Positions 6,201-8,297 of a DNA stretch of 43,496 bases are shown in pieces. The stretch lies in IMG/VR virus record IMGVR_UViG_2718218360_000017. The stretch is one strand, 5' to 3'. The notes below the pieces were generated by a model. The model did not search any database. It was not told the origin of the DNA and was given only the letters and a program-made list of their open reading frames with translations. The stretch comes from a virus. Lineage: Duplodnaviria; Heunggongvirae; Uroviricota; Caudoviricetes. Position numbers and translations under genes: made by a program. How positions within the stretch are numbered: the first letter of the stretch is position 1; each line of letters opens with the position of its first letter.

Positions 6201-6380
6201 AAAGGGGCGGGGAGGCAGATTCTCCAGAATCACCGACGCCAGGTACTGTGAGGTGGTCTTGCCGTTAATGGTGACATCCTTTTCCGTCACCCAGTTACCG
6301 TTACGCTGCAACTGAATCAGCAGTCGGACAGAAGAGGGATTACGGTCGCCCTTTGAGGTGGTCTCCAACAGTGACTGCAC
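3252..6380 (-). CDS. J: Host specificity / central tail fibre protein J (1042-aa intact reading frame; N-terminal ~120 codons lie upstream in shifted frames)
   Basis: Recalled lambda J similarity over the whole ORF (..[43 protein letters not shown]..). Confidence 0.9.
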
Positions 6381-6752
6381 CCCGAAGGTGACCCGCAGGC
6401 GGTCAATGTTCGCGGATGTAATGGTGGCGTTACCGGCTTTGCCTTCGTCACTTCCACGCCCAGTCCGGTTTCAGCTCCGGAGGACTCAAAGCCTTCCGGT
6501 GGTGTCTGCTCCTGCTCCCCGGCGCGCCAGACCGCGGTCACACCGTGTATCACGGGATTGCCGTCCGTGTCCGTCAAGTGGGGTTTTGTTCACCAGGATA
6601 CTCTGCAGCCCTTCACCGGACCTTCAATCGGCCCTTCACCAATCGCATCAATCACGCTCATCATCTGCGTGGACTTAAGATTGTCCTTTGCCTCTACCGG
6701 GCGTGTGCCCCTTGCCGCCCCCTTTACCCACTCTGTCCCCCTCTCCTGTCTG
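6317..6752 (-). pseudogene. J: Frameshifted 5' portion of gene J
   Basis: Track ORF 6317..6577 carries J N-terminal homology (..RAGEQEQTPPEGFESSG..) in a different frame from the main J ORF; hand translation shows J-like start (GKGGGKGHTP, EAKDNLKSTQ, SVIDAIGEGPIEGP) spread over three frames. Confidence 0.6.
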
Positions 6753-6806
6753 ATGTCTGAATCTGTTTATGCCAGAAAACAACAGGCACCCCGGAGGGTG
6801 CCTGTG

Positions 6807-6926
6807 TCATGACGGAATAAAATTTCTGAAACTCTTCACATTTCCGGCAATTGCCTGTAGCCGCAATAATGACGCTGCATTACTTTTTTGATGCCTGAAA
6901 AATAACTCCATAACGTTAATCTTCAT
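6807..6926 (-). CDS. Candidate 39-aa ORF (MKINVMELFFRHQKSNAASLLRLQAIAGNVKSFRNFIPS) in an AT-rich insert between I and J
   Basis: Hand translation; Shine-Dalgarno gggagag 4-5 nt before the ATG; below the 60-aa cut-off of the ORF track. Confidence 0.3.
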   Translation of the reverse strand: MKINVMELFFRHQKSNAASLLRLQAIAGNVKSFRNFIPS

Positions 6927-6972
6927 CGTTCTCTCCCGCAGCTCCGCTAACTCTGCGGGATTTTTTTATTTT

Positions 6973-7655
6973 CATCCCCGCCCGATAACCACCACTTTCC
7001 CGTCTCCGCCCTCATCACGGGTGCTGATGTCCTGGGATATCCGTCGTGAACCAACCAGCATTTCACCATAAGGCACCGGCATCGGGGTTCCCCTGGGCAA
7101 TCATGTTATCCAGTGACGAAAAATACGTGTTCTGTTTACCCGGTTATCCCGTGCTTTTGTACTCCGGTACTTTAGCCTTCGGGGGCCAGCATCTGAGCCA
7201 CACCACCCAGAATCATGCTGGCTCCAAGTGAAAACAGCATCGTGGTGGCAGAAAAAACCACCGGCTGCCAGGGCTGAACCCCATAACGCCATTGATGCCC
7301 CGGCAGTGAAGAACGACCCCACGATGGCCGCCGCCCCCAGCACAATCTGCAGTCCACCCTTTCCGGCCCCGGCCAGTCGCGGCACAATATGGATGACCGC
7401 CCCCTCACCCAGAGGTTCGTGAAGACGGGCGTACACCGCCTCCGGTGCCGTGTCCTCACCGCGAATACGTATCTGGTACCAGCCTTCGTTCATCTGACGG
7501 CGGAATCCCGGCATCTGCAGCGACAGGGCACGGATGGCTTCCGCTGCCGTGTTCACGTACAGGCTGAGGCGGCGGCCAAATCGTTGCAAATCCCCGTGAA
7601 GGCAGATGCGTGCCAGTGGCGGTGACGCCAGACAGAATGCGTTCGTCGTTGCCAT
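6973..7655 (-). pseudogene. I: Tail assembly protein I, interrupted by several frameshifts
   Basis: Track ORFs 7101..7655 and 7172..7459 each carry I-like segments (..ARICLHGDLQRFGRR.. and ..FSLGASMILGGVAQMLAP..); C-terminal I-like segments (KQNTYFSSLDNM.., ..VVVIGR) found by hand in further frames. Confidence 0.75.
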
Positions 7656-8297
7656 TTTTCAGAATACCTCTCCCGTTTACTCAGTTGTTCAGGCAGATGG
7701 TGAAGCAGTTCACCGTTGCCGCAGTATATGGCGGCATGATTGGCCACCGATGCGCCAAAGCAGCATAGCAGGATATCGCCAGGCTGTGCGGAAGGCAGGG
7801 AAATCCTGTAAAAAACCAGTCGCCGGCCATATTGTCCAGGTAAAGGTTCTGACCGTTGCGCCACCAGTCATCCTCACGCACAAAATCCGGCAGCGTTATC
7901 CCCGCCAGATGGTATGCATCCCGGAACAGGGTGTAACAGTCCGTCACCCCGTGCTCAAAACGACGCCCGGTCAGGTGCGGCACACAGCGGAATTTGTGAA
8001 TTTCCCCCCGGCAGACCAGCCACCAGGGCAGGGCACTCTTTATCTGCAGCCGCCGGTCCGCCTCGCTCAGCCAGGGCAGGCCACCGGGATGGCTGTGGAC
8101 CAGTGCCACAATCTCCCCCTGCATCTCTGCCCGCAGCCAGTCTTCCGGTGCAATACGAAAATACGCCTCCGGCTCTGCGGAAATATTCACACAAGGGATA
8201 TACCACTCCCCTCCGGCGTGCTTATCACGAAGCCGCACGACTCCGCAGGCGCACACCGCCGGGCATGCGCCAGAATCGCTGATTCAGTCTGTGTCAT
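7553..8297 (-). pseudogene. K: Tail protein K (MPN/JAMM plus NlpC/P60-like), interrupted by two frameshifts
   Basis: N-terminus MTQTESAILAHARRCAPAESCGFV at the tail of track ORF 8187..8558; middle part with JAMM motif HSHPGGLPWLSEAD in 7681..8256; C-terminal part (..QPGDILLCCFG..AFTGI..) in 7553..7864. Confidence 0.75.

What the first reader, a model, noticed from the sequence alone, without database searches (positions are those of the whole stretch)
6317..8297. Clustered single-base frameshifts break tail genes K, I and the 5' end of J
The ORF track and hand translation show gpK split over three frames, gpI over at least three, and the first ~120 codons of J in shifted frames. The head genes (terminase, portal, capsid), nanS-p, lysis and regulatory genes all read as long intact ORFs. 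Indels confined to the tail module suggest a tail-defective, possibly domesticated prophage kept for its cargo, or alternatively a local low-quality stretch of sequence.
Basis: partly seen in the sequence, partly recalled or inferred. Interest (0 to 1): 0.55.

Follow-up and report, generated by a model that had tools for sequence, protein, structure and literature searches.

The report
Sequencing-error indels in prophage tail genes
The broken tail genes are really in this sequence, but the pattern (14 one-base insertions/deletions, no accompanying substitutions, seen in no other genome) points to local assembly or consensus errors rather than a truly tail-defective prophage.

Summary
On the minus strand, K, I and the first ~100 codons of J are split over several frames, and the tape-measure gene H is broken too.

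The window is a lambdoid, nleG7-carrying prophage. It aligns end to end with the prophage between prfC and yjjG of E. coli O111:H8 strain 7-58 72A. Outside 6426-10472 the two differ by one substitution in about 39.4 kb. Inside that span there are 14 private one-base indels: 10 insertions, each duplicating a neighbouring base, and 4 deletions. There is also a 1.4-kb patch (8080-9455) identical to an O157:H7 prophage allele.

Undoing the 14 indels restores H (881 aa), K (247), I (192) and J (1159). I and J then match the reference proteins exactly.

No indel is shared with any of 11 aligned comparators. No complete E. coli genome matches the stretch better than a reference lacking all the indels. 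Natural alleles of this stretch differ by 121-217 substitutions, some with no indels at all. Short-read contigs of related prophages end in this module, which marks it as a repeat zone.

Best reading: unpolished consensus errors (confidence about 0.87). Real pseudogenisation is unlikely (about 0.07). Interest is low.

The parts
9332..11976 (-). Tape-measure gene H. It is split into a 539-aa N-terminal reading (stop at 10357-10359) and a C-terminal ORF (9332-10207) by a single missing T at 10471/10472.
   Evidence: The corrected 881-aa protein has TMP_2 and Tape_meas_lam_C domains. It exists exactly as WP_423742754.1.
8080..9455 (-). Allele-replacement patch covering the 3' end of H, all of M and L, and the first ~70 codons of K. 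It has 44 substitutions against the orthologous O111:H8 prophage and none against an O157:H7 (FRIK2455) prophage. M (9006-9335) and L (8308-9006) are intact.
7553..8297 (-). Tail tip assembly gene K (JAB + NlpC/P60). It is broken by a G5->G4 deletion at about 8210, a +C at 7826 and a +T (T5->T6) at 7815.
   Evidence: The corrected 247-aa product hits PF14464 and PF00877.
6972..7556 (-). Tail assembly gene I. It is broken by six inserted bases: 7257 (+T), 7185 (+C), 7150 (+G), 7142 (+C), 7141 (+G) and 7087 (+C).
   Evidence: The corrected product matches the strain 143 gpI-like protein at all 192 residues. That protein hits PF06805.
3252..6731 (-). Tip attachment / host specificity gene J. Four indels lie in the first ~102 codons: 6701 (+C), 6611 (-G), 6577 (+T) and 6426 (-G). 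The remaining 1042 codons are one intact ORF.
   Evidence: The corrected product matches WP_065763499.1 at all 1159 residues. Six gpJ Pfam domains are found.

Best explanation
The 14 single-base indels are most likely errors in the deposited consensus sequence, not mutations in the bacterium. They look like an unpolished or poorly covered stretch of an assembly, lying in a tail module that is repeated in many lambdoid prophages of the same genome. In that case the underlying prophage carries intact H, K, I and J genes like its near-identical relatives.

Shown: the indels are private and indel-only, they duplicate a neighbouring base, they are tightly clustered, and they are fully reversible to known intact proteins.

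Inferred: how the errors arose. One route is a long-read consensus bridging a repeat that short reads could not polish. Another is low-quality gap-closure reads. The 8080-9455 patch could come from the same assembly trouble (a chimera with a paralogous prophage), or it could be a real recombination tract.
For: 1. The whole 43,496-base window aligns collinearly with O111:H8 strain 7-58 72A. Outside 6426-10472 there is one substitution and no indel. All 14 indels lie inside that span.
2. From 6426 to 8059 there are 12 indels and no substitutions against the orthologue. The 8060-9600 patch has no substitutions and one indel against FRIK2455.
3. Removing the 14 indels restores full-length H, K, I and J. 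I (0/192) and J (0/1159) are identical to the reference proteins, and H differs at one residue.
4. All five aligned references, from four serotypes, and every one of six independent short-read draft contigs that reaches a given site, carry the intact state there.
5. Of 1,860 E. coli genomes with a full-length match to 6400-7850, none scores above 99.2% identity. That is the value expected when none of the indels is shared. In the 40 best records listed, the homologous stretch is 1443 bases in 39 and 1445 in one, against 1451 in the window.
6. A 23-mer spanning three of the indels is absent from IMG/VR and from the GTDB representative genomes. The corrected 20-mer occurs 17 times in IMG/VR.
7. 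None of nine frameshift-fragment products exists among 15 billion proteins, while the intact L does.
8. Natural alleles of the same 5.6-kb stretch differ from strain 143 by 121-217 substitutions. Two of them (121 and 168 substitutions) have no indel at all.
9. All 10 insertions duplicate an adjacent base (chance about 3e-4). Eight of the 14 events hit runs of only 1-2 bases, while the G6, A6 and A7 runs are untouched. That is unlike natural slippage, which favours the longest runs.
10. Short-read contigs of related prophages end at window-equivalent positions 10775, 8738, 8448, 8169, 7286 and 5548. This marks the module as a repeat-collapse zone. Residual indel errors are known to survive short-read polishing in such regions (PMC8812927 abstract).
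Against: - No reads, quality values or coverage are available, so the errors are not demonstrated directly.
- The source assembly and its sequencing technology could not be identified.
- One paralogous prophage (O111:H8 strain 8E) is identical to the window from 15000 down to about 9500 and diverges after that. At least that paralogue is therefore divergent, not identical, in the most indel-dense part. This weakens the simplest 'exact repeat was not polished' version of the mechanism.
- Single real frameshifts in K, I or J homologues do occur or are annotated in other genomes. One or two of the 14 could be genuine.
Confidence: 0.87

Rival explanations
1. The indels are real mutations. The prophage has lost H, K, I and J function and survives as a tail-defective, cargo-carrying (nleG7, lom, nanS-p-like) element.
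For: - Defective lambdoid prophages with broken tail genes are common in EHEC. Sakai Sp15 J is annotated as truncated by a mutation.
- O145 RM12581 K is annotated as frameshifted.
- A draft O157 contig has split I and J.
- The head, lysis and regulatory genes of the window are identical to those of intact relatives.
Against: - Fourteen frameshifts with no accompanying substitutions in 4 kb do not fit neutral decay. If indels are 10% of neutral mutations (an illustrative assumption from my own knowledge of E. coli mutation spectra), the probability is 1e-14; even at 50% it is 6e-5.
- Natural alleles of this stretch show over 120 substitutions with few or no indels.
- No indel is shared with any other genome.
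- The remaining 39 kb of equally dispensable prophage DNA has none.
- Short runs are hit while the longest runs are spared.
Confidence: 0.07
2. A mixture. One or two of the indels, for example the lone H deletion at 10471 or the G-run deletion in K, are genuine inactivating mutations. The dense cluster at 6426-7826 is error.
For: - The H deletion lies 2.2 kb from the dense cluster and is not in a homopolymer.
- Single frameshifts are seen in homologues elsewhere.
Against: - The H and K deletions are just as private as the others.
- The exact corrected H protein exists in other O111:H8 assemblies.
- Nothing separates these two sites from the rest except position.
Confidence: 0.08
3. The frame changes are decoded biologically, by programmed ribosomal frameshifting or transcriptional slippage, so the genes still make full-length proteins.
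For: Lambda-like tail modules do contain one programmed -1 frameshift, between G and T. An A AAA AAG heptamer lies near the end of G in this window.
Against: - K, I and J homologues in every other genome are single uninterrupted ORFs with no frameshift at these sites.
- Fourteen recoding events of both signs at non-slippery sites would be needed.
- In-frame stops follow the shifts within 8-50 codons.
Confidence: 0.005

Closest known systems
Residual indel (homopolymer-length) errors in long-read or hybrid bacterial assemblies that persist in repeat regions after short-read polishing (Wick & Holt 2022, PMC8812927)
   Same: The changes are indel-only and duplicate or drop a neighbouring base. 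They are confined to a multi-copy prophage module where short-read contigs break. The rest of the sequence is essentially perfect. All changes are private to one assembly.
   Different: The technology is unknown. Insertions outnumber deletions 10 to 4, and many hit runs of 1-2 bases rather than long homopolymers. From my own knowledge, that looks more like a PacBio CLR draft consensus or poor Sanger reads than typical Nanopore error. No reads were available to confirm.
Genuinely defective lambdoid prophages of EHEC (for example the Sakai Sp prophages; the VT1-Sakai/Sp15 J gene is split by a mutation, AP000400)
   Same: It is the same gene module (H-M-L-K-I-J-lom-tail fibre) in a lambdoid prophage carrying effector cargo, and the tail genes are interrupted.
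   Different: The interrupted homologues seen here show one or two breaks per locus. Natural alleles of this stretch differ mainly by substitutions. This window has 14 private frameshifts and no private substitutions in the affected genes.
Lambda G-T programmed -1 ribosomal frameshift
   Same: It is a frame change inside a lambda-type tail gene cluster.
   Different: That site is a conserved slippery heptamer between G and T. The indels here are in H, K, I and J, are not conserved in any homologue, and are followed by stop codons.

Membership tests
Lambda-type tail tip module (gpH, gpK, gpI, gpJ) | The gene products carry the family domains: TMP_2/Tape_meas_lam_C, Prok-JAB + NlpC_P60, Lambda_tail_I and the gpJ domain series. 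| tested here: met
   Pfam hits above the curated cut-offs were found for the indel-corrected K, for the 192-aa I and 1159-aa J proteins of strain 143 (to which the corrected products match exactly), and for the protein identical to corrected H. The gene order H-M-L-K-I-J-lom-fibre matches the annotated relatives.
Genuine pseudogenes / defective prophage | The inactivating mutations are reproducible: shared by related isolates or independent assemblies. | tested here: not met
   None of the 14 indels is present in the 5 aligned references or the 6 draft contigs. None of 1,860 genomes with a full-length match scores above the identity expected when no indel is shared.
Genuine pseudogenes / defective prophage | The mutation spectrum fits neutral decay: substitutions at least as frequent as indels, and no restriction to one small span. 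| tested here: not met
   There are 14 indels and no substitutions against the composite best references, all within 4.05 kb of 43.5 kb. Natural alleles show 121-217 substitutions, two of them with no indels.
Genuine pseudogenes / defective prophage | Read-level support for each indel. | not testable with these tools
   No reads or quality values are available, and the source assembly was not identified.
Assembly / consensus error | The differences are private to one assembly, and removing them restores known intact sequences exactly. | tested here: met
Assembly / consensus error | The error type is characteristic of sequencing: single-base indels that duplicate or drop a neighbouring base, with no substitutions. 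| tested here: met
   All 10 insertions duplicate a neighbour (chance about 3e-4). The spectrum is 10 insertions, 4 deletions and 0 substitutions.
Assembly / consensus error | The location is a repeat or hard-to-assemble region. | tested here: inconclusive
   The K-I-J segment has 9 places in the closest genome. Short-read contigs end inside this module. However, the one paralogue examined is divergent, not identical, in the indel-dense part.
Programmed ribosomal frameshift | A conserved frameshift site at the same position in homologues. | tested here: not met
   Homologues are uninterrupted ORFs at all 14 sites.

The most novel reading that the evidence does not exclude
The indels are real and arose in one burst of localised frameshift mutagenesis. 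One possible cause is error-prone repair synthesis tied to the recombination event that installed the O157-type patch at 8080-9455. That burst would have knocked out four tail genes at once in an otherwise pristine prophage.
Probability: 0.04. Interest if true: 0.6.

Novelty: not a real feature. Interest (0 to 1): 0.08.

Why it matters
The main value is as a caution. A genome scan or annotation pipeline would call this prophage tail-defective, or would mark H, K, I and J as pseudogenes. The evidence says the biology is probably an ordinary, intact nleG7-carrying lambdoid prophage, and the breaks belong to the assembly. If the indels were real, 14 frameshifts with no substitutions in 4 kb would point to an unusual localised mutational process. 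That reading is improbable and can be checked cheaply with reads or one PCR amplicon.

Tried and rejected
- **Finding the source assembly.** No complete RefSeq E. coli genome contains the indel-bearing sequence; the best match is 98.4-99.2%. O111:H- 11128 is in the collection, so it is not the source. Exact-product look-ups of the truncated H and nine fragment ORFs found nothing. This is only weak negative evidence, because gene callers may choose other starts and PGAP gives pseudogenes no protein.
- **Contigs carrying the window's L or capsid allele.** These gave only O157 genomes or short draft contigs of related prophages, not the source.
- **The corrected hybrid K.** It is not in the protein collection, so whether the 8059-8080 junction is real could not be settled.
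- **The three indels at 8194/8200/8209 seen against strain 143.** These were an alignment artefact of the divergent patch. Against FRIK2455 they collapse to a single G-run deletion.
- **Compensating frameshift pairs.** J nets 0 and I nets +6, but stop codons follow each first shift. Rejected.
- **A mutator or natural slippage spectrum.** Rejected because the longest runs are untouched and the rest of the prophage has no indel.
- **Literature searches for the source strain or locus.** Nothing specific was found.

Full report
**What the window is.** The tail genes lie on the minus strand. The window is a lambdoid prophage. It runs from the start codon of the type III effector gene nleG7 (position 1) to the end of the integrase gene (43496).

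The window aligns collinearly over its whole length with the prophage between prfC/dinI and yjjG of E. coli O111:H8 strain 7-58 72A, NZ_CP077499.1. It is also very close to strain 143, NZ_CP028607.1. The gene order there is tail fibre, lom, J, I, K, L, M, H, T/G, V, U, Z, head genes, terminase, lysis genes, a nanS-p-like DUF6645 gene, Q, and the replication and immunity genes. No stx gene is annotated.

- K starts at 8297 and stops after 36 codons. Its remainder lies in two other frames (ORFs 7681-8256 and 7553-7864).
- I starts at 7556, has 100 correct codons, and then crosses six inserted bases.
- J starts at 6731 and stops after 18 codons. Its intact remainder is the 1042-aa ORF 3252-6380.
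- The tape-measure gene H is also split, at 10471/10472.

**Placing the indels.** Against strain 143 and strain 7-58 72A there appear to be 16 indels plus 44 substitutions. All 44 substitutions lie within 8080-9455.

A search with 8000-9500 found that this block is 99.7% identical to a prophage of O157:H7 FRIK2455 and relatives. Realigned against that prophage, the block 8060 to about 9600 has no substitutions. The three apparent indels at 8194/8200/8209 collapse into one deletion in a G5 run at about 8210.

The final list is 14 single-base events:

| Position | Change | Gene |
|---|---|---|
| 10471 | -T | H |
| ~8210 | -G (G5->G4) | K |
| 7826 | +C | K |
| 7815 | +T | K |
| 7257 | +T | I |
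| 7185 | +C | I |
| 7150 | +G | I |
| 7142 | +C | I |
| 7141 | +G | I |
| 7087 | +C | I |
| 6701 | +C | J |
| 6611 | -G | J |
| 6577 | +T | J |
| 6426 | -G | J |

Outside 6426-10472 the window differs from strain 7-58 72A by one substitution (2679) and no indel in about 39.4 kb.

**Reversibility.** Deleting the 10 inserted bases and restoring the 4 missing ones gives uninterrupted ORFs.

- I is identical to the reference protein at all 192 residues.
- J is identical at all 1159 residues.
- H (881 aa) differs at one residue, I842T, which comes from the patch.
- K (247 aa) is a hybrid of the two alleles.

The corrected products carry the expected Pfam domains. The exact corrected H protein exists in other assemblies. 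One is a paralogous prophage of O111:H8 strain 8E, where it is WP_423742754.1.

**Are the indels found anywhere else?** No.

- Five aligned references all carry the intact state at every site. They are the O111:H8 orthologue, the O111:H8 8E paralogue, O145:H28 RM12581, O157:H7 FRIK2455 and O157:H7 Sakai Sp15.
- So does every one of six short-read draft contigs that reaches a given site.
- Among 1,860 E. coli genomes with a full-length match to 6400-7850, the best identity is 99.2%. That is what is expected when none of the indels is shared. In the 40 best records listed, the homologous stretch is 1443 bases in 39 and 1445 in one, against 1451 here.
- A 23-mer covering three indels is absent from IMG/VR and from the GTDB representative genomes. 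The corrected 20-mer is found 17 times in IMG/VR.
- None of nine fragment ORF products is among 15 billion proteins, whereas the intact L protein is. This last test is weak, because start-codon choice and pseudogene annotation can hide such products.

**Why this looks like error and not decay.**

1. Spectrum. There are 14 indels and no substitutions against the best references. Natural alleles of the same 5.6-kb H-to-J stretch differ from strain 143 by 121-217 substitutions. Two of them (121 and 168 substitutions) have no indel at all. Even if half of all neutral mutations were indels, 14 out of 14 would have probability 6e-5. At a more realistic 10% (an assumption from my own knowledge of E. 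coli mutation spectra) it is 1e-14.
2. Clustering. All 14 lie in 4.05 kb of a 43.5-kb prophage whose other genes are equally dispensable in a lysogen (P about 5e-13).
3. Site choice. All 10 insertions duplicate a neighbouring base (chance about 3e-4). Yet eight of the 14 events are at runs of one or two bases. The G6, A6 and A7 runs in the core region are untouched. Natural slippage, with or without mismatch repair, favours the longest runs (established knowledge).
4. No rescue. The net frame change is 0 for J and +6 for I, but stop codons follow the first shift in each gene. This is not a compensated, functional arrangement. Programmed frameshifting is excluded because no homologue has a frame change at these sites.

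**Why here (inferred).** The K-I-J segment occurs in 9 places in the closest genome and in up to 15 places per genome across E. coli. Short-read draft contigs carrying the same capsid allele end inside this tail module, at window-equivalent positions 10775, 8738, 8448, 8169, 7286 and 5548. Short reads alone therefore cannot resolve this region.

Residual indel errors in long-read or hybrid assemblies are known to survive short-read polishing precisely in repeats (PMC8812927). An insertion-rich, substitution-free spectrum also fits an unpolished PacBio-type draft consensus or low-quality Sanger gap-closure reads (my own knowledge, not tested).

One caveat: the single paralogue I could examine (strain 8E) is identical to the window only from 15000 down to about 9500. 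It is divergent in the indel-dense part. The exact mechanism of the failure therefore remains open.

**The patch.** The O157-type block at 8080-9455 sits inside the affected span. The hybrid K it creates is found in no complete genome and not in the protein collection. It could be a genuine recombination tract; similar substitution-only mosaic blocks separate the window from strain 143 at 16-18 kb, 28-32 kb and 35 kb. It could also be a chimera produced by the same assembly difficulty. I could not decide between these.

**Verdict.** Without reads this stays an inference. Read mapping or one PCR amplicon over 6300-10600 would settle it.

This is not a new biological feature, and interest is low. 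The most novel reading not excluded is a real, localised frameshift burst linked to the recombination patch (about 4%).

Noticed in passing
window 8080-9455: This 1.4-kb block covers the H 3' end, M, L and the K 5' end. It has 44 substitutions against the orthologous O111:H8 prophage and none against an O157:H7 FRIK2455-type prophage. The resulting hybrid K is in no complete E. coli genome and not in the 15-billion-protein set. It is either a real recombination tract or an assembly chimera.
   Followed up: partly
window 10471-10472: A single missing T splits the tape-measure gene H into 539-aa and 291-aa readings. It lies outside the finding's coordinates but is the same kind of private indel.
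   Followed up: yes
window 1-43496; L005 2208-45697: The window runs exactly from the nleG7 start codon to the end of the integrase CDS. In O111:H8 strain 7-58 72A the prophage sits between prfC/dinI and yjjG. The cargo is nleG7, lom/ail and a nanS-p-like DUF6645 esterase. No stx gene is annotated, although related draft contigs with the same capsid allele (L035, L039) carry stx upstream of the esterase.
   Followed up: partly
window about 12375-12381, minus strand: An A AAA AAG heptamer lies just before the end of the G ORF, with the T ORF (12020-12328) downstream. This is probably the natural G-T programmed -1 frameshift of lambda-type tails. RefSeq annotates T in relatives as 'incomplete'.
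   Followed up: no
L002 7863-11335; L015 8405-9147; L011 5003-9309: Single frame breaks in homologues elsewhere: Sakai Sp15 J is split by a mutation, O145:H28 RM12581 K is annotated as frameshifted, and a draft O157 contig has split I and J. These show one or two breaks per locus, not 14.
   Followed up: partly
window 16000-17999, 28000-32200, 35000-35999, compared with L003: Substitution-only mosaic blocks and a replaced early-region segment (29.6-33.4 kb) separate the window from strain 143. They are absent against strain 7-58 72A. This is ordinary lambdoid mosaicism, and these blocks contain no indels.
   Followed up: partly
window 2679: This is the only difference from strain 7-58 72A outside the 6426-10472 span. 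It is a single substitution inside the lom-like ORF 2585-3223.
   Followed up: no
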